A stretch of 46,150 nucleotides of DNA from Acidobacteriota bacterium (GTDB taxonomy: Bacteria; Acidobacteriota; Aminicenantia; Aminicenantales; Aminicenantaceae). The notes below the pieces were generated by a model that had not been told where the DNA came from, did no database searches, and was given only the letters and a program-made list of their open reading frames with translations. The position numbers and the translations under genes are program-made. Below are positions 12,601-19,617 of the stretch, one piece after another (position 1 is the stretch's first letter; each line of letters starts with the position of its first letter). The stretch covers positions 1 through 46,150 of the forward strand of contig JAHIPL010000132.1 of the NCBI GenBank assembly GCA_018894615.1. Direction: 5' to 3'.

Positions 12601-13153
12601 TCAACTGGTATCCCACGCCATCAAGGACCTGGATGAGGAAAAGGATTTCAACAGAGAAATCACCCTCGCCGGCATTATTTCGGGATTCAAGCCCCTCAAA
12701 ACAAAAAAAGACGAACGGATGGCGACCTTCACCATAGAAGACCTGGGCGGGCGAATCGATGTCGTCGCATTTCCGGATGCCTTCAGAGTCAGCGAAGATG
12801 CGCTGCATGATGACTGCCTGGTATGGATACGAGGCAAATTCCTGGGTGAAGAGGATAACAGGCGGATCCAAATCCTTCAGGCCATGCTTCTCGAGGAGGC
12901 GTTTAAAAAGCAGGCCAAGCGGGTGGTCTTTCGAATATTCTTGCCGGGAATCGAAAAATCCGTTTTTTTGGAACTTAAAGACATACTTGAAAAATTTGCC
13001 GGAGAGTGTCCGGCCTCGTTTGAACTCGAAACACCGCGCAAGAGCCGTGTCGTTCTTCGTTCCATCGATATTCAGGGAGTTGAGCCTTCTGAAAAGCTGA
13101 TCGCCGCCGTGCAGGGGATATTAGGAGAAAACAGCGTCCATGTGGAGTACTGA
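9677..13153 (+). CDS. dnaE: DNA polymerase III alpha subunit
   Basis: PHP HLHNHSEFS, GPGRGSAAGS, PDIDIDF, KMDILGL, GYGFNKSHS; no intein-sized insertion; start taken at ATG 9677. Confidence 0.98.
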   Translation: MESTFIHLHNHSEFSILDGAFKTKNLIKTVSEMNMPAVALTDHGNIFGAVTFARQAREKNINPIIGCEVYVAPGSRKEKKHKAHEPLHFHLVLLAKNEEGYTNLCRLISSGYLEGFYYRPRIDKEILSRHKDGLIALSGCLKGEVSYYLHLGQEERAEKAALEYAAIFPPEHFYVELQDHGLPPQQKIRPELIRLARKLELPLVATNDVHYLNKEDAKSHDILLCVQTNKKVTDSDRIRFGTQEFYFKTAEEMTELFHDVPDALSNTGKIADRCDYHFPDAGYFLPHFKPPEDLKLRDYFEKVVREGFRKKMMQLTERMGKGDIPSREVYEERLEKEIRLVEQMNFEGYFLIVWDMIREARRRKIPVGPGRGSAAGSLLAFSLGITAIDPMEYDLLFERFLNPERISLPDIDIDFCGRRREEVIEYVTGKYGRENVCQIITFGTMAARASVRDIGRALEVPLPQVDMIAKLIPPLGPDAHIAAAVKKIPQLREMQKQDDKISELLAIAQKLEGQVRHPSIHAAGIVITPRPLVEFLPLYQSVKGEITTQFPMGDIEAIGLLKMDILGLRNLTVIQDCLDMVKRDLDVALDVESIPLDDELTFTLFQNGRTDGVFQFESSGMKDLLRRYKPETFRDLIALNALYRPGPLQSGMTEEFIQCKNDPERIRYEFPEMELILKETKGMIVYQEQVMRIATDLAGFSMAEADILRKAMGKKNESVMKDQQKNFVSGAGEKGMKASDANKIFEQINYFAGYGFNKSHSAAYAYLAFHTAYLKAHYPQYFLAALLTSEAERGATAQVVKYIHECKEMGITVLPPDINKSELHFKVEGGGIRFGLAAVKNIGEGAILSLIEARRRRKAFSSPFELCEDLDSKALNKKVIEGLIKSGAMDSLGWKRSQLFHLIDEIINYSHALQKMKKSAQNPLFPQSHVINPVIPAEVKGMREWDESLLLSYEKDSLGFYVTGHPLTQYGGRLRQLVSHAIKDLDEEKDFNREITLAGIISGFKPLKTKKDERMATFTIEDLGGRIDVVAFPDAFRVSEDALHDDCLVWIRGKFLGEEDNRRIQILQAMLLEEAFKKQAKRVVFRIFLPGIEKSVFLELKDILEKFAGECPASFELETPRKSRVVLRSIDIQGVEPSEKLIAAVQGILGENSVHVEY

Positions 13154-13640
13154 AAGAAAAGGTCCGCTGGTTGTGTGTATTGTCGAAAGCAGTCCGGCCG
13201 TCTGCTCCATCCTTCGCCTTTCCCTGAGAGAACCCGAGTTCCTTCTGCGTTTTTTCTCCGATATTCCGGCACTTCATGAGTCTATTTCTCAGGAACGTCC
13301 CGATGTTCTTCTGATGAATATATCCTTCCGGCAGGGAATTACCGGTTCCATTCCCTTCATTCTGCTCGCCGGGGCTTTTGACGTGCTCCCCCCTTCGCTT
13401 CCTGAACCGCCGACCTGCCGAGCGTTTGTCCGTGTGCCGTTTGATTCCGGGGAACTGGCCCGTTTGGTTCGATCGATCGGTCGGGAGGGAAACCATGGTC
13501 CGGGAGGAACAGCGGAGATAAAACCTTCAGACAATATCATACCCGCTCCCCCGGATTTGGAGAGGCGGGTCCGACGGATCGTGCAGGAGGAACTGCAAAA
13601 AAGGGATAAAGAATATGGAATTCCGGAGGAGCCGGAATAA
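13140..13640 (+). CDS. Degenerate (pseudo) receiver-domain protein with a short C-terminal helix
   Basis: Receiver-like order VCIVESS / PDVLLMNIS / PFILLAGAFD / RVPFDSGEL with the phosphorylation residues substituted; C-terminal ERRVRRIVQEELQKR. Confidence 0.6.
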   Translation: MWSTERKGPLVVCIVESSPAVCSILRLSLREPEFLLRFFSDIPALHESISQERPDVLLMNISFRQGITGSIPFILLAGAFDVLPPSLPEPPTCRAFVRVPFDSGELARLVRSIGREGNHGPGGTAEIKPSDNIIPAPPDLERRVRRIVQEELQKRDKEYGIPEEPE

Positions 13641-13653
13641 AGGAGGACATCCC

Positions 13654-14418
13654 GTGCTGATTACCGTCGACATTGGCAACACAAACACGGCTATCGGTGT
13701 ATTCAGGGAGGAGAGTTTGATCGCCCAGTGGAGGGTTTCATCCGACCGGGATAAAACAAGCGATGAGTATGCTGTCCTGCTGATGAATTTTCTGACGATG
13801 GCATCGGTCGCAAAGGAGGGAATAAGAGGGATGATCATCTCCAGTGTCGTTCCCCCCTTAACTCCGGTGTTCCAGCAGTTGTGCCGAAGGCACTTCCGGT
13901 TCAAACCCATGGTGGTCGGACCGGGACTGAAAACAGGGATGCCCATCCTTTATGAAAACCCGCATGAGGTCGGTGCCGACCGGATTGTGGCCTCTGTTGC
14001 CGCCTATGTCAAATACACCCGGCCGGTGATTATCTGCGATTTCGGGACCGCGACCACCTTTGATGCGGTTTCGGGAAAGGGGGAATACATGGGAGGAGCG
14101 ATTGCGCCCGGATTCAAAATCGCGGCGGAAGCGCTCTATCTCCGTACGGCCAAACTGCCCCATGTGGAGATCCTGAAACCGGAGGGCATCATCGGGAAGA
14201 CAACGGTCACCAGCATACAATCGGGGATTTATTACGGATATATCGGACTGGTCACTCACATCATTCAGGAGATGAAAAAGGAGATGGAGGGGCCGGTTGT
14301 CGTCGTTTCAACCGGAGGATTCGGCGAAGAGGTGTTCAACGACATCGATATCATCGACTATTATGAGCCCTCCCTTATTCTCGATGGCCTGGCTTTCCTT
14401 TTCAGGAAAAATTCTTGA
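13654..14418 (+). CDS. coaX: Type III pantothenate kinase
   Basis: VDIGNT, EVGADR, DFGTATT, GGAIAPG; GTG start at 13654 after AGGAGG (13641). Confidence 0.95.
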   Translation: MLITVDIGNTNTAIGVFREESLIAQWRVSSDRDKTSDEYAVLLMNFLTMASVAKEGIRGMIISSVVPPLTPVFQQLCRRHFRFKPMVVGPGLKTGMPILYENPHEVGADRIVASVAAYVKYTRPVIICDFGTATTFDAVSGKGEYMGGAIAPGFKIAAEALYLRTAKLPHVEILKPEGIIGKTTVTSIQSGIYYGYIGLVTHIIQEMKKEMEGPVVVVSTGGFGEEVFNDIDIIDYYEPSLILDGLAFLFRKNS

Positions 14419-14479: not shown

Positions 14480-15112
14480 ATGGAACGGAGAAGCGATTAT
14501 TACCGGACAATCGCCCGTCTCTTTTTAAAAGAGAGGGGAGCGCCGTTGGTTCTTTCCTCTGGTGACATGAATCAGATTCGGGCCTGGGAGAACAAGGGGA
14601 TCCCCCTTCACGCCGTGACCGAAGGGATTCGTCTGCATTTCAGGCGGCCTGCCTCCCGGAACCGCACCCGGGGAGGCGTTTTGCCATTATCCGCCTGCTC
14701 CGTTTCCGTTGAAAAAGCCTATGACATGTTTCGGTCCCGCAGAGTCGGATCCGACGGACGAAGAATAAGCCGGAGGAAAAAATACAGGGCGGCCCTCGAG
14801 CGGATTGAATCCTTTCTGCAAAACGTGACCCCTGAAGCGCAGATCCTCCTATCGGTCATTCTTGAAGCCCGCGACATTTTCCGTTCCGATTCCGTAGACG
14901 AAGACCTGTTGGAAAAACTGGAAAATCGGCTGGAGGAGATTATGGCCGGCATGATTCTTCCGTCCGAAATGGGACAGAGAAGAAGTGCGGCAGCGGAGGA
15001 TTACCCGGAATTGAAGGATGAGGAACGGGAGCGGATCGCGTTTTTATTCGCCTGCCGGGACGTGCGGGACAAATATGGGATCCCTTATTTGTCCGTTCAT
15101 TATTACGAATGA
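14480..15112 (+). CDS. Conserved hypothetical protein, N-terminus resembling a DnaD-like helical domain
   Basis: ATG at 14480 after GAGGG; LVLSSGDMNQIRAWENKGIPLHAVTEGI pattern; fills the gap between coaX and the next gene. Confidence 0.6.
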   Translation: MERRSDYYRTIARLFLKERGAPLVLSSGDMNQIRAWENKGIPLHAVTEGIRLHFRRPASRNRTRGGVLPLSACSVSVEKAYDMFRSRRVGSDGRRISRRKKYRAALERIESFLQNVTPEAQILLSVILEARDIFRSDSVDEDLLEKLENRLEEIMAGMILPSEMGQRRSAAAEDYPELKDEERERIAFLFACRDVRDKYGIPYLSVHYYE

Positions 15113-15161
15113 AGGAATGAGTTTGATTGTGGGTGAGTGAAATGACGCAGGAGAAGAGACG

Positions 15162-16262
15162 ATGATGACCTGTACATTCGATGCGGTGCTTGATCAGCAG
15201 GAAAAAGAGCGGAATTTTCGATGTGTTGTTCGTTTTGCGGAAAAAGATTATGCCGCTGAGATGAGCCGGTTTCCGCAAAAAAGGGAGGAAGGGGAACAAC
15301 CGGCCTTTTATTTTGTCCGTTCCAGCCAGCCCATTCCTCTGGTGTGGAAACATCCATTCATTTATACCAAGGAAAAGGAAAGCGGTGCCGCAGGAAAGGC
15401 AACGGTCCTTTTTCCCGGGGCGAACAGGGTGACAGGGAAAAAAGAAATGGCTCGAAGGGGCATGCTGTTTCTTCTGTCTGAAGGGGTGGAGGAGATGGTG
15501 CGCGCCGTTGTGGATGAAGCGGGGATTCAAGGGATCATCCAAGAGCGGCTCGTTGATTTTTCAGGGCTCTCCGTTCAGGATCTGACGGAGCGGAGCGTCC
15601 TGCTGGAATCCAAAGGACATCTTCGCATCCTCTCCTTTTCCCCGCTCTTTTTTCTTTCACAGACCAGTTTTGAGAATCTCTGCTCAAAGATCGTTCAGCA
15701 TCTGACCCGCTTCCACGAGGGGCATCCGACCCTGATGGGACTGAATAAAAAAAAGATCCGGCAGCGGTTTGACGTGCATCCGCGTATTTTGACCCTGGCC
15801 CTCAAGAATCTGGTCCGGGCTCAGATGATAAGGGAAGGGGATGAATATATCGCCCTTGCAGATTTCCAGATTCATCTCTCTTCATCGGATGAAAAAGTTC
15901 TGGCCCACCTCGAAGACATCTACCTTGAGGGGCATTTTCAGTCGGAGTCTCTTGAAAGTCTGCGACGCAAGCTCAACGTGGCACCCCATAAGTTGGATCA
16001 GTTGATTTCCCTTCTTATCGAAAGGGAGAGGGTGGTGCAGTCCAAAGACGGGTATATTCTTCATGCCGACTGGCTGGATGACCTGGTCGCCAAACTGAAA
16101 TCCCTGGAGAAGAGGGAGCTGACGGTTTCCGAATTTAAAGACATGACAGGCCTGACGAGGAAGTATGCCATTCCTCTTCTTGAACTGCTCGATCAGATGA
16201 ACATCACCCGCCGCAGAGGATCGGTGCGGGAAATCGTATCGGAGGGAGAACGAGGGAAATGA
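15162..16262 (+). CDS. SelB C-terminal (winged-helix, SECIS-binding) domain protein lacking the GTPase domain
   Basis: C-terminus LTVSEFKDMTGLTRKYAIPLLELLDQMNITRRRGSVR matches SelB WH4; FHEGHPTLMGL matches WH2; no P-loop in 366 aa; own RBS AGGAGA. Confidence 0.8.
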   Translation: MMTCTFDAVLDQQEKERNFRCVVRFAEKDYAAEMSRFPQKREEGEQPAFYFVRSSQPIPLVWKHPFIYTKEKESGAAGKATVLFPGANRVTGKKEMARRGMLFLLSEGVEEMVRAVVDEAGIQGIIQERLVDFSGLSVQDLTERSVLLESKGHLRILSFSPLFFLSQTSFENLCSKIVQHLTRFHEGHPTLMGLNKKKIRQRFDVHPRILTLALKNLVRAQMIREGDEYIALADFQIHLSSSDEKVLAHLEDIYLEGHFQSESLESLRRKLNVAPHKLDQLISLLIERERVVQSKDGYILHADWLDDLVAKLKSLEKRELTVSEFKDMTGLTRKYAIPLLELLDQMNITRRRGSVREIVSEGERGK

Positions 16263-17284
16263 AGGAATGGATGCCGCCCGGTGATATAAGGGTGATCCGG
16301 ACCGTGGATGCCCATACGGCCGGAGAGCCCCTTCGTATCATTGTCGAGGGAATTCCGGAAATTCCGGGATCGACCATTCTGGAGAAAAGACGTTTTGCAA
16401 AAAAAAATCTGGATTGGATCCGAACGGCATTGATGTGGGAACCGCGAGGACATGCCGACATGTATGGATGTTACCTGACGGAAGCCGAAAAACCTGATGG
16501 AACGCTGGGTGTGATCTTTCTGCACAACGATGGCTACAGCACGATGTGCGGACACGGTATCATCGCGCTGGCGACGGCACTGGTTGAAACCGGCCGGATA
16601 GAACCGGACGGCGGGACCGCTCAGATTAACTTTGACACGCCCGCCGGAAGAGTGACGGCCCGGGTTGAAAGCGTGGAGGGCCGAGCGGAGAGGGTTTCTT
16701 TCGAGAACGTGCCTTCCTTTGTCTACGCGCTGGACCGGTCATTTGATATTCCGGGCGTGGGTCGGATCCTGGTGGATGTTGCCTACGGTGGGGCTTTTTA
16801 TGTCTTCTGCAGGGCTGAGGATTTCGGTTTTCGCCTCGTGGCCGAGGAATTCAATAAACTGATCGCCGCCGGAAAAGCGGTGAAAAAGGCCGTATCTTCC
16901 GCTCTTGACATTCGGCATCCTGAAAATCCCGATCTGGGTTTTCTGTACGGGACGATTTTTATCGGGCCGCCTCACGATTCAGGGAACCATTCACGAAATG
17001 TATGTGTGTTCGCTGAGGGTGAAGTGGATCGCAGCCCGACGGGAACCGGGATCAGCGCGCGAGCGGCCATCCACCACGCCAGGGGTGAACTATCCCTTGG
17101 CTCGTATTTCTCCGTTGAAAGCATTCTGGGGACATGTTTGACTGGCCGGGCGGTCCGAACCGCACAGGTCGGTTCTTTTTCCGCAGTGGTTCCCGAAGTT
17201 TCAGGAACGGCCTATTTGACGGGCCGCCACGAATTCTTTCTTAATCCGGACGATCCTCTCCATCAAGGATTCCTGTTCCGTTGA
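16259..17284 (+). CDS. Proline racemase family, Cys/Thr type (predicted trans-3-hydroxy-L-proline dehydratase)
   Basis: DAHTAGEP, EPRGHADMYG, YSTMCGHG (catalytic Cys), DRSPTGTG (Thr in place of the second Cys); ATGA overlap with the upstream gene. Confidence 0.85.
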   Translation: MKEWMPPGDIRVIRTVDAHTAGEPLRIIVEGIPEIPGSTILEKRRFAKKNLDWIRTALMWEPRGHADMYGCYLTEAEKPDGTLGVIFLHNDGYSTMCGHGIIALATALVETGRIEPDGGTAQINFDTPAGRVTARVESVEGRAERVSFENVPSFVYALDRSFDIPGVGRILVDVAYGGAFYVFCRAEDFGFRLVAEEFNKLIAAGKAVKKAVSSALDIRHPENPDLGFLYGTIFIGPPHDSGNHSRNVCVFAEGEVDRSPTGTGISARAAIHHARGELSLGSYFSVESILGTCLTGRAVRTAQVGSFSAVVPEVSGTAYLTGRHEFFLNPDDPLHQGFLFR

Positions 17285-17373: not shown

Positions 17374-19617
17374 CTATCTTCGTCTTCTTTTTCTGGCCGC
17401 TTTTTGCTTTTCTTTTTCTTTTTTGGTTTCCACAAGAGCCGTTTTCAATTTTGCGGCGAAAAGACCGGAAGTGGGCTCTTCGTCCTTCACAAAGACCGGG
17501 TATTCTTCTTCTTGTTTCTTTTTCTCGCCCTCTTTTAGGGGCTCTTCTTTGAGAGGCTCCTCGATGACCTTGTCATCAAAAGCGGACTTGAGGGCGGAGA
17601 GGGCTTCCATCTCGGATTCTTCCAGTTCAATCTCTTCTTCCCTGATTTTTCGGACGCCTTTTCTATGCCGCCGGGCACCCCGTTCCGTTTCTGTTTTTAA
17701 AGGATGCCCCTTTTTCTTATCTTTGGCTTTCTTCGTTTTTTCATCTTTCGCTTTCTGGAGCGTCAGTTTCGCCTCCTCCGCTTCCGGCAGTTTTTTCTCT
17801 TTGGGTTCCCTTTCAGTCGGAGGGGAGACGGGTTTCGTCCGGGCCGGTTCAACCGGGGACACCGATTCGATCTTCTCTCTCACAGGAGGGACCTCCGGCT
17901 CGATGATACGAAGCTTCGGCATCTCTTCGGCCGCAGCACTTCCCGGTTCGGGGGCGATGGTGCCGATACTGGGCATCCTTTTCTTTCCCTCTTCCCCGGA
18001 GGGTGACGGGGTTTTTGCTCCGGAGGGAGAGGGTGCCGGTTTTTTCTCGATTTCAACGTCCTCTGTCACGATTTTTTCTCTGTAAAAGAAAATGCCTTTT
18101 TTCTTTTCGGATCTTTCAAATTCAGGGGAATTGAGCAGAACGGTTTCCACATCTTCCTGGTAGGTCAGCTTTAACAGGGTGAGAAGATGGTAGGCGCGCA
18201 GATAGTGCAGAAACTGATCGTCGCCTTCAAAACCGAAATTTTTATAGACATAAACCAGGAGGTCCTGCAGATCTGCTTTTTTCCGAAGGTTGTACGCGCG
18301 GAACAGTTCTTCCATGGCGTTTTTTTCCAGGAAGATGATTTTATTCGGCATGCAGTAGGAATGAACGTCCCCCTTCTCCAGGAAGAACTCATCCTTATCC
18401 TTGTTGTATCCGATTTTTGGGATTTCGATTTTTTTCTTTCCTTTTTTTATGGAAAAAGAAAAATCGGCCGGGCCGTTCCGTTTCAAGGACAGGCTTGATC
18501 CCTGCGGGACATTGTGTTTCTGGAAATAGTCCTTCAGCCCGATAAAGGAGTGGATGTTCGAGTAGTAGTAGACGGTGTAGATGTCTCCCGATCCCAAGTC
18601 CGTGAACCGGTATTCCCGAATCGCCGCCAGTTCTCTGTGGAGATGTTTGGGAATGATCACCCCTCCGGAAAAAAGTTCCCGCCATGTGAGATAAAGCTTG
18701 AGTGGAAATTTCTGCGAGGTGGAAATTTCCGGCTTGATCCCGTCCGTATAGGCAGGGACCCGAACTCTTTTGGCGGAGAGGGGAAGATCCTGGATGAGGG
18801 CATCCAGAATGCTTTTCAGATGCCAGCGGCCTTCATCCTCGGGAGAAACGAAAACAAACTGTTTTTTCAGGCTTTCGAGCGTGGCGTTGAGGCTCAGGCA
18901 TTGGAGGTGGAAAAGCGGGTCCTTAACCTTCATGGAAAACAAATCACGAACAAGGTCTTTTGTGGGAACGGACTTTTGTGAGGCGTTTATTTTTTTCTGA
19001 ACCTGGTCGATCTGCTTTGGGGAAACGGCGATTCGATTCGTGCTCAGCTGCCAGAAATTATTCCAGCTGAAAAAATCGCCGGAACCCGCCAGTGAATGCG
19101 ACAGATTTTTTCCCAGAGAGCGAAAATCCTTGTCCGTCATGGGAAGCTCATGAAGACGGGGATCCTCCTCCCGTTTGAGGGCATCGGGTTTCTCGTTTCT
19201 GGCGTCCTGATTGGACGGGATCAGAACCTGTGTTTTGCTTTTTTTCATGTAGTCGATGTGCCGGCGGAAGATTCCTCCACCCGTGTAATCGACCTCCAGC
19301 ATTTCACAACCGAAGCTTTCATAAGTGATTTTATTGATCACTTTTAATACAACAGCCCCGGAAAAATGTTCTGTTCCCTTGCTGCTCACAACCAGCGGTT
19401 CATCATAGACCCTGTAAATGAGGTCGTCCACTTCGTATAAACCACTGGGGCTGTAGACCTTGACTTCCTGATTCAGCTGTTTGGAGTTTTTTTGAAAGGC
19501 CAATTTTTGTGACAAATCAACCAGACTGAAGGGTTTTTTCTCCTCAGTCAGGACTTTTTTAATGAAGGCCAGGTCCTTGTCGGAAATATTTAAGATATTG
19601 TTTTCTTTGTTCATCAT
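17374..19617 (-). CDS. Large hypothetical protein, globular N-terminal ~520 aa plus disordered Pro/Glu/Lys-rich tail
   Basis: 747-codon ORF, ATGA overlap with the upstream OTC-like gene, low-complexity tail ending KRRRR. Confidence 0.85.
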   Translation of the reverse strand: MMNKENNILNISDKDLAFIKKVLTEEKKPFSLVDLSQKLAFQKNSKQLNQEVKVYSPSGLYEVDDLIYRVYDEPLVVSSKGTEHFSGAVVLKVINKITYESFGCEMLEVDYTGGGIFRRHIDYMKKSKTQVLIPSNQDARNEKPDALKREEDPRLHELPMTDKDFRSLGKNLSHSLAGSGDFFSWNNFWQLSTNRIAVSPKQIDQVQKKINASQKSVPTKDLVRDLFSMKVKDPLFHLQCLSLNATLESLKKQFVFVSPEDEGRWHLKSILDALIQDLPLSAKRVRVPAYTDGIKPEISTSQKFPLKLYLTWRELFSGGVIIPKHLHRELAAIREYRFTDLGSGDIYTVYYYSNIHSFIGLKDYFQKHNVPQGSSLSLKRNGPADFSFSIKKGKKKIEIPKIGYNKDKDEFFLEKGDVHSYCMPNKIIFLEKNAMEELFRAYNLRKKADLQDLLVYVYKNFGFEGDDQFLHYLRAYHLLTLLKLTYQEDVETVLLNSPEFERSEKKKGIFFYREKIVTEDVEIEKKPAPSPSGAKTPSPSGEEGKKRMPSIGTIAPEPGSAAAEEMPKLRIIEPEVPPVREKIESVSPVEPARTKPVSPPTEREPKEKKLPEAEEAKLTLQKAKDEKTKKAKDKKKGHPLKTETERGARRHRKGVRKIREEEIELEESEMEALSALKSAFDDKVIEEPLKEEPLKEGEKKKQEEEYPVFVKDEEPTSGLFAAKLKTALVETKKEKEKQKAARKRRRR

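What the first reader, a model, noticed from the sequence alone, without database searches (positions are those of the whole stretch)
15162..16262. SelB without its GTPase half: a stand-alone SECIS-binding protein?
Seen: a 366-aa intact ORF with its own RBS. It has a degenerate domain-III-like start and winged-helix repeats, and ends in a well-preserved SelB WH4 motif (GLTRKYAIPLLELLD...TRRRGSVR). There is no P-loop, and the upstream ORF is not a G domain, so this is not a simple frameshift. Known: bacterial SelB is a ~600+ aa EF-Tu-like GTPase whose WH3/4 binds the SECIS hairpin, while eukaryotes split the job between eEFSec and SBP2. Inference: (a) one half of a split bacterial SelB, functionally like SBP2; (b) a competitor or regulator of Sec insertion; or (c) an RNA-hairpin binder repurposed for other mRNAs.
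Basis: partly seen in the sequence, partly recalled or inferred. Interest (0 to 1): 0.78.

Follow-up and report, generated by a model that had tools for sequence, protein, structure and literature searches.

The report
GTPase-less SelB paralogue, RNA-binding arm
This intact, strongly conserved gene encodes only the back half of the selenocysteine elongation factor SelB (one beta-barrel plus four RNA-hairpin-binding winged helices); nearly every Aminicenantes bacterium has it, with or without selenocysteine or RNase R, so it is most likely a re-used stand-alone RNA binder of unknown target.

Summary
Window 15162-16262 (+) is an intact 366-aa ORF made of a SelB domain-III-like beta-barrel, a spacer helix and four winged helices (WH1-4). 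It has no GTPase domain or domain II.

It is not half of a split SelB. The same genome carries a complete selA-selD-selB-tRNASec cluster on another contig.

It belongs to an ancient, monophyletic paralogue family found in 192 of 201 sampled genomes of its class (Aminicenantia). Only 43 of those genomes have SelB, so the general function cannot be selenocysteine insertion or its regulation.

WH4, the SECIS-gripping module, is the most conserved part. It scores as well against Pfam as the genome's real SelB.

In 68 of 74 related loci the gene directly follows RNase R, usually with an ATGA overlap. This window's lineage has lost RNase R, as have at least three others. The gene stays under the same purifying selection there (dN/dS 0.12-0.16).

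Best reading: an autonomous RNA-hairpin-binding protein, probably in RNA turnover or translation surveillance, with an unknown target. No publication on it was found. NCBI labels it only "SelB C-terminal domain-containing protein".

The parts
15162..16262 (+). Gene for the GTPase-less SelB paralogue (366 aa; SelB domain 3 + spacer + WH1-4)
   Evidence: ORF. Pfam and NCBIfam hits. Residues 121-359 align to the Moorella SelB C-terminal fragment 1LVA, E 5e-21. AlphaFold model pLDDT 86. Foldseek matches 1LVA, 4ZU9 and 5LZB at E 1e-14 to 1e-16.
15150..15153 (+). GGAG ribosome-binding site, 8 nt before the ATG
   Evidence: Read directly from the sequence.
15162..15425 (+). Residues 1-88: EF-Tu/SelB domain-3-like six-strand beta-barrel. 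It is the least conserved part and is absent in some family members.
   Evidence: Strands at 2-10, 18-25, 28-36, 48-59, 65-70 and 78-85. Foldseek aligns about 95 columns to EF-Tu chains. Mean column conservation 0.49. Forms of 260-290 aa lack this part.
15426..15485 (+). Residues 89-108: spacer helix, equivalent to the N-C spacer of SelB
   Evidence: Helix 93-105. In A. aeolicus SelB the spacer is residues 343-361, between D3 and WHD1 (PMC4605307).
15486..15863 (+). Residues 109-234: winged helices WH1 and WH2
   Evidence: Secondary structure. Pfam SelB-wing_2 at residues 179-232. Alignment to 1LVA.
15864..16241 (+). Residues 235-360: WH3 and WH4, the module that binds the SECIS hairpin in SelB. 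WH4 (302-360) is the most conserved part of the family.
   Evidence: Pfam SelB-wing_3, 61 bits. In the genome search this WH4 scores 64.4 bits and the genome's real SelB 61.1 bits. Foldseek to 1WSU (WH3/4 with SECIS RNA): TM 0.89-0.90, rmsd 1.8 A. 26 of 58 WH4 columns are at least 90% conserved.
15113..15161 (+). 49-nt spacer at the position where most relatives carry the 2-kb RNase R gene (rnr); rnr is cleanly absent here
   Evidence: 68 of 74 related loci have rnr directly upstream on the same strand. No RNase R orthologue was found anywhere in this assembly.
14480..15112 (+). Conserved upstream gene 'hyp' (210 aa, all-helical, no known family). It precedes rnr-selBC in relatives and sits directly before selBC here.
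   Evidence: The homologue is present in 55 of the 80 related loci, and the alignment has 15 invariant columns. No Pfam or NCBIfam hit. AlphaFold pLDDT 88, with no PDB fold match.
13615..14418 (+). coaX (type III pantothenate kinase), first gene of the conserved coaX-hyp-(rnr)-selBC run
   Evidence: Pfam Pan_kinase, E 1e-74. Synteny.
16259..17284 (+). Proline-racemase-family gene whose ATG overlaps the selBC stop (ATGA). This arrangement is specific to this lineage.
   Evidence: Pfam Pro_racemase, E 1e-113. In relatives the homologue lies on the opposite strand or is absent. The closest relative, L136, shares the arrangement.

Best explanation
**What it is.** The gene encodes an ancient paralogue of the bacterial selenocysteine elongation factor SelB. 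It has lost the GTPase domain (D1) and domain 2. It keeps domain 3, the spacer and the four winged helices.

**Shown here:**
- It is a core, single-copy gene of the class Aminicenantia.
- It forms one clade apart from true SelBs.
- It is under purifying selection.
- Its presence does not depend on SelB, and therefore not on the selenocysteine trait.
- Its presence does not depend on RNase R, although in most genomes it is translationally coupled to the end of rnr.

**Inferred:**
- The WH3/WH4 module is the most conserved part and is structurally superimposable on the SECIS-bound module of SelB. The protein therefore most likely works as a free-standing binder of an RNA hairpin with a SECIS-like apical loop.
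- WH1-3 would serve as a rigid arm, and D3 as a dispensable accessory.
- The most likely arena is handling of structured RNA: mRNA or stable-RNA turnover, or surveillance at the ribosomal mRNA entrance. There it cooperates with RNase R where RNase R exists, but it also has a role of its own.

The RNA target is unknown.
For: **Architecture**
- Searches give D3 + spacer + WH1-4 with no G domain.

**A paralogue, not a split gene**
- The genome has a full selA-selD-selB-tRNASec cluster on contig C37.
- All stand-alone forms sit on one side of a branch with SH-aLRT 100 and length 0.92, apart from 21 full-length SelBs.

**Distribution**
- 192 of 201 class genomes have the protein; 43 of 201 have SelB.
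- In the window's own family the figures are 35 of 35 against 8 of 35.
- Elsewhere in Acidobacteriota, nearly all listed matches lie in frames of about 630-720 aa, which are full-length SelBs.

**Selection**
- dN/dS is 0.12-0.16 in all three regions of the gene in this lineage.
- It is 0.11-0.38 in lineages that keep rnr.

**RNA-binding module kept**
- WH4 has 26 of 58 columns at least 90% conserved, against 9 of 88 in D3.
- Pfam WH4 score is 64.4 bits, against 61.1 for the genome's own SelB.
- TM 0.89-0.90 and rmsd 1.8 A to the 1WSU WH3/4-SECIS complex.

**RNA-decay context**
- RNase R (TIGR02063, 685 bits) lies directly upstream in 68 of 74 loci. The commonest arrangement is a 4-nt start/stop overlap.
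- Other orders of the class have rnr-pgi-selBC.

**Independence from RNase R**
- G000, G021, G081 and G115 lack RNase R yet keep hyp-selBC.
- The SelB-C gene tree needs at least 3-4 separate rnr losses.
Against: - No RNA binding has been measured and no candidate target hairpin was found.
- Winged helices can also bind DNA or protein.
- The link to rnr may be inherited gene order rather than function. It runs through a housekeeping string (dnaE, coaX, pgi). In this very genome the gene is coupled by an ATGA overlap to an unrelated proline-racemase-family gene.
- The role of D3 is unexplained. In SelB it touches the T and extra arms of tRNASec (PMC4605307).
Confidence: 0.55

Rival explanations
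1. It is a dedicated accessory subunit or adaptor of RNase R. It brings the exonuclease to particular hairpins or to the ribosome, or restrains it there, and has no role without it.
For: - rnr lies directly upstream in 68 of 74 loci, mostly with an ATGA overlap, across families 36-45% identical.
- The local RNase R ends right after its S1 domain at residue 688 of 692. From memory, E. coli RNase R uses a basic C-terminal tail for ribosome and tmRNA-linked work, and no such tail is present here.
- The family (f10) that lacks true RNase R has only very divergent copies or none.
Against: - Four genera, including this genome, lost RNase R completely but kept the gene intact.
- dN/dS in those lineages (0.12-0.16) is no higher than in rnr-positive lineages.
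- In deeper orders pgi lies between the two genes.
Confidence: 0.2
2. It is a modulator of selenocysteine insertion. By occupying SECIS hairpins it competes with SelB and tunes or blocks UGA recoding.
For: - WH4 keeps the SelB consensus.
- This genome has the full Sec machinery, so SECIS hairpins presumably exist here.
Against: - About 150 genomes have the protein without SelB.
- WH4 is equally invariant in Sec-positive and Sec-negative genomes.
- The paralogue clade sits on a long branch away from the SelBs of the class, so competition can at most be a local side effect.
Confidence: 0.1
3. It is a non-RNA role. The tandem winged helices act as a DNA-binding regulator or a protein scaffold, and the SelB-like WH4 motif is conserved for fold reasons only.
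For: - The next-best Foldseek matches after SelB are tandem-WH scaffolds and DNA-binding proteins (UFL1/DDRGK1, Pol III RPC34, TFIIIC, ESCRT-II), at much weaker scores.
- No RNA target was identified.
Against: - The conserved residues are concentrated in the helix and wing of WH4 that carry the SelB family signature.
- Matches to SelB are 10 or more orders of magnitude better than to any DNA-binding WH protein.
- The neighbour is an RNase, not a regulated operon.
Confidence: 0.1
4. It is one half of a split SelB, or a decaying remnant of selB.
For: The size and domain content equal the C-terminal 57% of SelB.
Against: - A complete SelB is present elsewhere in the genome.
- No stand-alone D1-D2 protein was seen among the translational-GTPase hits.
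- The length is the same in hundreds of genomes, dN/dS is 0.12-0.16, and the clade is monophyletic and old.
Confidence: 0.02

Closest known systems
[quoted passage not shown]
   Same: - Domain 3 beta-barrel, N-C spacer helix and four tandem winged helices occur in the same order.
- WH4 carries the SelB signature (G-x-[ST]-R-K-Y-x-x-P-L-L-E-x-L-D-Q ... T-R-R-x-G).
- WH3/4 superimposes on the SECIS-bound module (TM about 0.9).
   Different: - It has no GTPase domain and no domain 2, so it cannot bind GTP or the aminoacyl end of tRNASec.
- It scores 46 bits against a cut-off of 242.
- It forms a separate clade.
- It is present in about 150 sampled genomes that have no SelB.
- It sits beside RNase R rather than selA or selC.
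Eukaryotic SBP2 with eEFSec (SECIS binding and tRNA delivery split between two proteins)
   Same: In concept, it is a SECIS-type hairpin-binding activity on a polypeptide separate from the GTPase.
   Different: - There is no L7Ae-type domain.
- The genome's SelB keeps its own WH1-4, so nothing is split.
- Most carriers have no Sec machinery at all.
Isolated SelB domain 4 / 4b fragments studied in vitro (Moorella SelB 377-634, 1LVA; E. coli SelB WH3/4, 2PJP)
   Same: It has the same domain content as the engineered C-terminal fragments, which fold and bind SECIS RNA on their own (PDB entry titles).
   Different: This is a natural, independently evolving gene with an extra D3 barrel. It is fixed across a bacterial class and its ligand is unknown.
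Archaeal SelB-like proteins (aSelBL / 'EF-Pyl', PMC3037878, PMC4329189)
   Same: They are SelB paralogues retained in organisms without selenocysteine and re-used for something else.
   Different: Those keep the GTPase and EF-Tu-like domains 1-3 and lack winged helices. This one is the reverse: winged helices without the GTPase.

Membership tests
SelB (TIGR00475 equivalog) | EF-Tu-type GTPase domain (D1) with P-loop | tested here: not met
   No GTP_EFTU hit. The TIGR00475 match covers model positions 391-575 only. The AlphaFold model starts with a beta-barrel.
SelB (TIGR00475 equivalog) | Domain 2 beta-barrel, forming the Sec-binding pocket together with D1 | tested here: not met
   No GTP_EFTU_D2 hit. 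Only one barrel precedes the spacer helix. The SelB HMM alignment starts at position about 329 of 645.
SelB (TIGR00475 equivalog) | Domain 3 beta-barrel followed by the N-C spacer | tested here: met
   Six-strand barrel at 2-85 plus helix 93-105. 365 columns align to 4ZU9 and 5LZB. The domain layout follows PMC4605307.
SelB (TIGR00475 equivalog) | Four C-terminal winged helices, with the WH4 signature | tested here: met
   Pfam SelB-wing_2 and SelB-wing_3. Residues 121-359 align to 1LVA residues 14-256. 1WSU TM 0.89-0.90.
SelB (TIGR00475 equivalog) | Whole-protein score above the curated cut-off | tested here: not met
   45.7 bits against a cut-off of 242.25. The genome's true SelB scores 347 bits.
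SelB (TIGR00475 equivalog) | Co-occurrence with selA, selC and selD (the Sec trait) | tested here: not met
   The family is in 192 of 201 class genomes and SelB in 43 of 201. In this genome the Sec genes exist but are served by a canonical SelB.
SelB (TIGR00475 equivalog) | Binds a SECIS hairpin through WH3/WH4 | not testable with these tools
   Only motif and fold retention could be shown.
SBP2-like split Sec system | A SECIS-binding protein separate from an elongation factor that itself lacks a SECIS-binding domain | tested here: not met
   The genome's SelB has its own WH4, 61.1 bits, and aligns over positions 1-578 of 581 in TIGR00475. The short protein has no L7Ae-type hit.
Aminicenantia stand-alone 'SelB C-terminal domain-containing protein' family (NCBI label only) | About 360 aa, D3 + WH1-4, member of the monophyletic stand-alone clade, located after coaX-hyp(-rnr) | tested here: met
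   40-45% identity over 98% of the length to more than 100 members. Alignment A1. Clade support SH-aLRT 100. Synteny.
RNase R-coupled gene pair (rnr-selBC) | Start codon overlapping or abutting the stop of rnr | tested here: not met
   In this window hyp is followed by a 49-nt gap and then selBC. There is no RNase R orthologue in the assembly. The feature is met in 68 of 74 related loci.

The most novel reading that the evidence does not exclude
The mRNA-hairpin-reading, ribosome-docking arm of SelB has been exapted in a whole bacterial class. It would be an autonomous trans-acting factor that sits at the ribosomal mRNA entrance, or on free RNA, and reads a specific hairpin. Through that hairpin it would control translation, recoding or decay of a set of transcripts. 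This would be a bacterial counterpart of hairpin-reading factors such as SBP2 or Roquin, working without SelB and without RNase R.
Probability: 0.12. Interest if true: 0.85.

Novelty: new variant of a known kind. Interest (0 to 1): 0.6.

Why it matters
- SelB's C-terminal arm is the textbook example of a bacterial protein that reads an mRNA hairpin on the ribosome, and it is known only as part of the selenocysteine machinery.
- Here the same arm exists as a free, class-wide core protein. It has outlived both selenocysteine and, in several lineages, its usual neighbour RNase R.
- If it binds a defined hairpin, it would define a new bacterial RNA-binding protein family and probably a new regulon or RNA-surveillance route in a widespread, uncultured sediment and subsurface lineage.
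- It would also be a natural, well-folded, GTPase-free hairpin-binding module for RNA tools.
- This window adds the natural "knock-out" control. It shows that the protein's role does not depend on RNase R.

Tried and rejected
1. **RNase R::SelB-C fusion proteins.** Several genomes showed open frames of 850-1070 aa around the match. Reading the DNA showed these are stop-poor alternative frames in high-GC genomes. rnr ends with its own stop, and the short gene starts at or over it.
2. **"N-terminal-only" SelB in genus g29.** TIGR00475 matched only positions 1-345. The proteins are ordinary 643-674-aa SelBs with WH4.
3. **Stand-alone SelB C-termini in other phyla.**
   - A search with the C-terminal 262 aa of the genome's real SelB found only a handful of short high-GC proteins. 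They look like fragments or mis-called starts of full SelBs.
   - The representative-library search lists many 250-370-aa hits below E 1e-20, but most come from 1-3-kb contigs with no taxon.
   - Whether the architecture exists outside the class remains unresolved.
4. **The upstream 'hyp' protein as a clue.** Its AlphaFold model is confident (pLDDT 88) and all-helical, but it has no PDB fold match at E < 1 and no Pfam or NCBIfam hit.
5. **Replacement of SmpB.** rnr often precedes smpB in other bacteria. The genome, however, has both SmpB and tmRNA.
6. **Known RNA families near the gene.** Rfam found only one tRNA in the window, and the scan found no convincing promoter or terminator around the gene.
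7. **N-terminal extension of the 470-aa f13 variant.** It has no detectable similarity to SelB D1 or D2.
8. **Literature.** Five full-text searches found nothing on GTPase-less SelB paralogues.

Full report
**1. Observation**

Window 15162-16262 (+) is an intact 366-codon ORF. GGAG lies 8 nt before the ATG. Only 7 further sense codons precede the upstream stop (open frame 373 aa).

- Pfam finds SelB-wing_3 (residues 316-356, E 7.5e-17) and SelB-wing_2 (179-232), and no GTPase domain.
- The NCBIfam selB equivalog matches only its last third, at 45.7 bits against a cut-off of 242.
- Residues 121-359 align end to end with the crystallised C-terminal fragment (WH1-4) of Moorella SelB (1LVA, E 5e-21).
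- An AlphaFold model built on 27 homologues (pLDDT 86) shows a six-strand beta-barrel (2-85), a helix (93-105) and four winged helices (109-360).
- Foldseek aligns all 365 columns to domain 3 plus WH1-4 of full-length SelB (4ZU9, 5LZB). It aligns WH3/4 to the SECIS-bound module 1WSU (TM 0.89-0.90, rmsd 1.8 A) and the barrel alone to the C-terminal beta-barrel region of EF-Tu chains.
- This is exactly the D3 / N-C spacer / WHD1-4 layout described for A. aeolicus SelB (PMC4605307).
- The upstream ORF is not a G domain. With its start corrected to 14480, it is a conserved 210-aa helical protein of no known family.

**2. Not a split or broken selB**

The same assembly (2.95 Mb, 91% complete) carries a complete Sec cluster on contig C37:
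- selA (573 bits);
- a selD-type AIRS protein;
- a 641-aa SelB (347 bits, positions 1-578 of 581) with its own WH4 (61.1 bits);
- directly after it, tRNASec with anticodon TCA (73 bits).

The other tRNASec-model hits are tRNA-Ser and tRNA-Leu. The short protein is only 26% identical to the C-terminal half of that SelB.

**3. A large, old, conserved family**

- More than 500 proteins of 340-406 aa match over 98% of the length at 40-45% identity. The named ones come from Candidatus Aminicenantes and carry NCBI's automatic label "SelB C-terminal domain-containing protein".
- 535 stretches in the species-representative genome collection (one genome per species) encode a relative.
- In a sample of 201 genomes of the window's class, 192 have a match. 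Every genome of the window's own order scores E <= 1e-65, apart from one fragmented case.
- In 301 genomes of the phylum, nearly all listed matches outside the class lie in 630-720-aa frames, which are ordinary SelBs.
- In a tree of the D3-WH region, all stand-alone forms from 10 families of the class sit on one side of a branch (SH-aLRT 100, length 0.92). They are apart from 13 SelBs of the class and 8 of other Acidobacteriota. This points to one ancient origin.

The family shows a size series:
- 470-497 aa in one family, with an N-terminal extension not recognisably SelB-like;
- about 360 aa (D3 + WH1-4) in most;
- 260-290 aa (WH1-4 only) in two families.

WH1-4 is thus the invariant core and D3 is dispensable. 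Within the family, WH4 is by far the most conserved part (26 of 58 columns at least 90% conserved, against 9 of 88 in D3). It scores slightly higher against Pfam's WH4 model than the genome's real SelB does (64.4 against 61.1 bits).

**4. Independence from selenocysteine**

SelB above the curated cut-off is present in only 43 of the same 201 genomes. In the window's own family, 35 of 35 genomes have the short protein and 8 of 35 have SelB. A role as a SelB partner or as a regulator of Sec insertion therefore cannot be the function the family is kept for. It remains possible as a side effect in Sec-positive genomes like this one.

**5. The RNase R link and its limits**

- In 68 of 74 related loci where the gene was called, the gene directly upstream on the same strand is RNase R (TIGR02063, 685 bits; RNB, cold-shock and S1 domains).
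- The commonest arrangement is a 4-nt ATGA start/stop overlap.
- The conserved run is coaX-hyp-rnr-selBC.
- In other orders of the class the order is rnr-pgi-selBC, or pgi-selBC.
- One large family (f10) has no true RNase R and only very divergent copies elsewhere in the genome.

This window is an exception that works as a natural experiment:
- hyp is followed by 49 nt and then selBC.
- No RNase R orthologue exists anywhere in the assembly. There is only a distant RNB-family protein on contig C211.
- The two closest relatives (86% and 73% identical proteins) share the arrangement.
- Three other genera of the family (G021, G081, G115) also lack RNase R and keep coaX-hyp-selBC.
- On the SelB-C gene tree these cases need at least 3-4 separate losses. 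One apparent fifth case, L091, was an ORF-calling artefact.
- dN/dS in the window's rnr-less lineage is 0.12-0.16, uniformly over D3, WH1-2 and WH3-4. Sixty-one pairs from rnr-containing lineages give 0.11-0.38.

Selection on the protein did not relax when RNase R was lost. An obligate RNase R subunit is therefore unlikely, although cooperation where both exist remains plausible.

A caution on ATGA overlaps: in this genome the gene's stop overlaps the start of an unrelated proline-racemase-family gene, which in relatives lies on the other strand.

**6. Mechanism proposed**

*Shown:*
- the architecture;
- paralogy with SelB;
- class-wide retention;
- purifying selection;
- independence from SelB and from RNase R;
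- preferential conservation of WH4.

*Inferred:*
- The protein binds an RNA hairpin through WH3/WH4 in the way SelB binds SECIS.
- It acts as a free-standing RNA-binding factor in RNA turnover or translation surveillance.

The D3 barrel touches the T and extra arms of tRNASec in SelB (PMC4605307). Here it is the least conserved part and is sometimes lost, so I treat it as an accessory.

I put about 0.55 on "autonomous RNA-hairpin binder, Sec-independent". The rivals are:
- 0.2 on a dedicated RNase R adaptor;
- 0.1 on Sec modulation as the main role;
- 0.1 on a non-RNA role;
- 0.02 or less on a split gene or remnant.

No target RNA was found. Rfam finds only one tRNA in the window. The genome has SmpB and tmRNA, so the protein does not stand in for SmpB.

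**7. Comparison with what is known, and novelty**

- The closest known protein is SelB itself. The protein fails four of SelB's defining features (D1, D2, curated score, Sec co-occurrence) and meets two (D3/spacer, WH1-4).
- It resembles the engineered SelB C-terminal fragments used for crystallography, but it is a natural gene.
- It is the mirror image of the archaeal SelB-like proteins, which keep the GTPase (PMC3037878).
- Five literature searches found no paper on it. The only public trace is the automatic NCBI name.
- Earlier notes of this scan on other genomes (e1-1488155, e1-949472) describe the same family beside RNase R. I reached the same architecture and synteny independently.
- New here: the co-occurrence counts, the single-origin tree, and the evidence from rnr-less lineages that the protein does not depend on RNase R.
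- I class it as a new variant of a known kind.

**8. Limits**

- Taxon names of the sampled genomes are hidden, so "class" and "family" are the tool's ranks.
- rnr losses were counted on a gene tree.
- The assemblies are about 90% complete, so a single absence is weak evidence. Absence in four genera, each with an empty syntenic slot, is not.
- Whether similar stand-alone forms exist outside the class is unresolved.

Noticed in passing
window 16259-17284 (+): A proline-racemase-family gene (Pfam E 1e-113) starts with an ATGA overlap on the selBC stop. In relatives its homologue lies on the opposite strand, next to ornithine-cyclodeaminase-like and FAD-oxidoreductase genes (a hydroxyproline/proline catabolic set). 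An inversion therefore put it into the selBC transcription unit in this lineage.
   Followed up: partly
window 14480-15112 (+): A conserved 210-aa all-helical protein ('hyp') always lies between coaX and rnr/selBC in the window's order. It has 15 invariant residues and ends in a conserved IPYxSxxYY-type motif (here IPYLSVHYY). It has no Pfam, NCBIfam or PDB-fold match.
   Followed up: partly
genome contig C37:3525-8143 (L001, L011, L138): A compact selA - selD-like - selB - tRNASec(TCA) cluster is followed by an AbiEii-type toxin gene on the opposite strand.
   Followed up: partly
genome contig C211:2835-4994: A divergent RNB-family exoribonuclease-like protein (about 700 aa, motif VTSPIRRYADL) is the only RNase II/R relative in this assembly. 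It is not the orthologue of the operon RNase R.
   Followed up: no
L133:1601-4270 (+) (genome G007): An 889-aa open frame joins a phosphoglucose isomerase, a Lys/Glu/Pro-rich linker and a SelB-C-like D3+WH1-4 part. It is either a real PGI::SelB-C fusion or a lost stop codon. It was seen in one genome only; sister genomes have separate pgi and selBC genes.
   Followed up: no
L125:3002-4414 (-) (genome G018 and relatives, family f13): This family has 470-497-aa variants of the stand-alone protein. Their N-terminal extension of about 220 aa shows no detectable similarity to SelB D1 or D2.
   Followed up: partly
window 17374-19617 (-): A 747-aa protein with no family match and a long Lys/Glu/Pro-rich tail is the usual convergent downstream neighbour of selBC across the order.
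   Followed up: no
window 13140-13640 (+): A 166-aa ORF between dnaE and coaX gives only a weak, partial response-regulator receiver match (E 1.2e-3, first half of the domain). It overlaps both neighbours.
   Followed up: no
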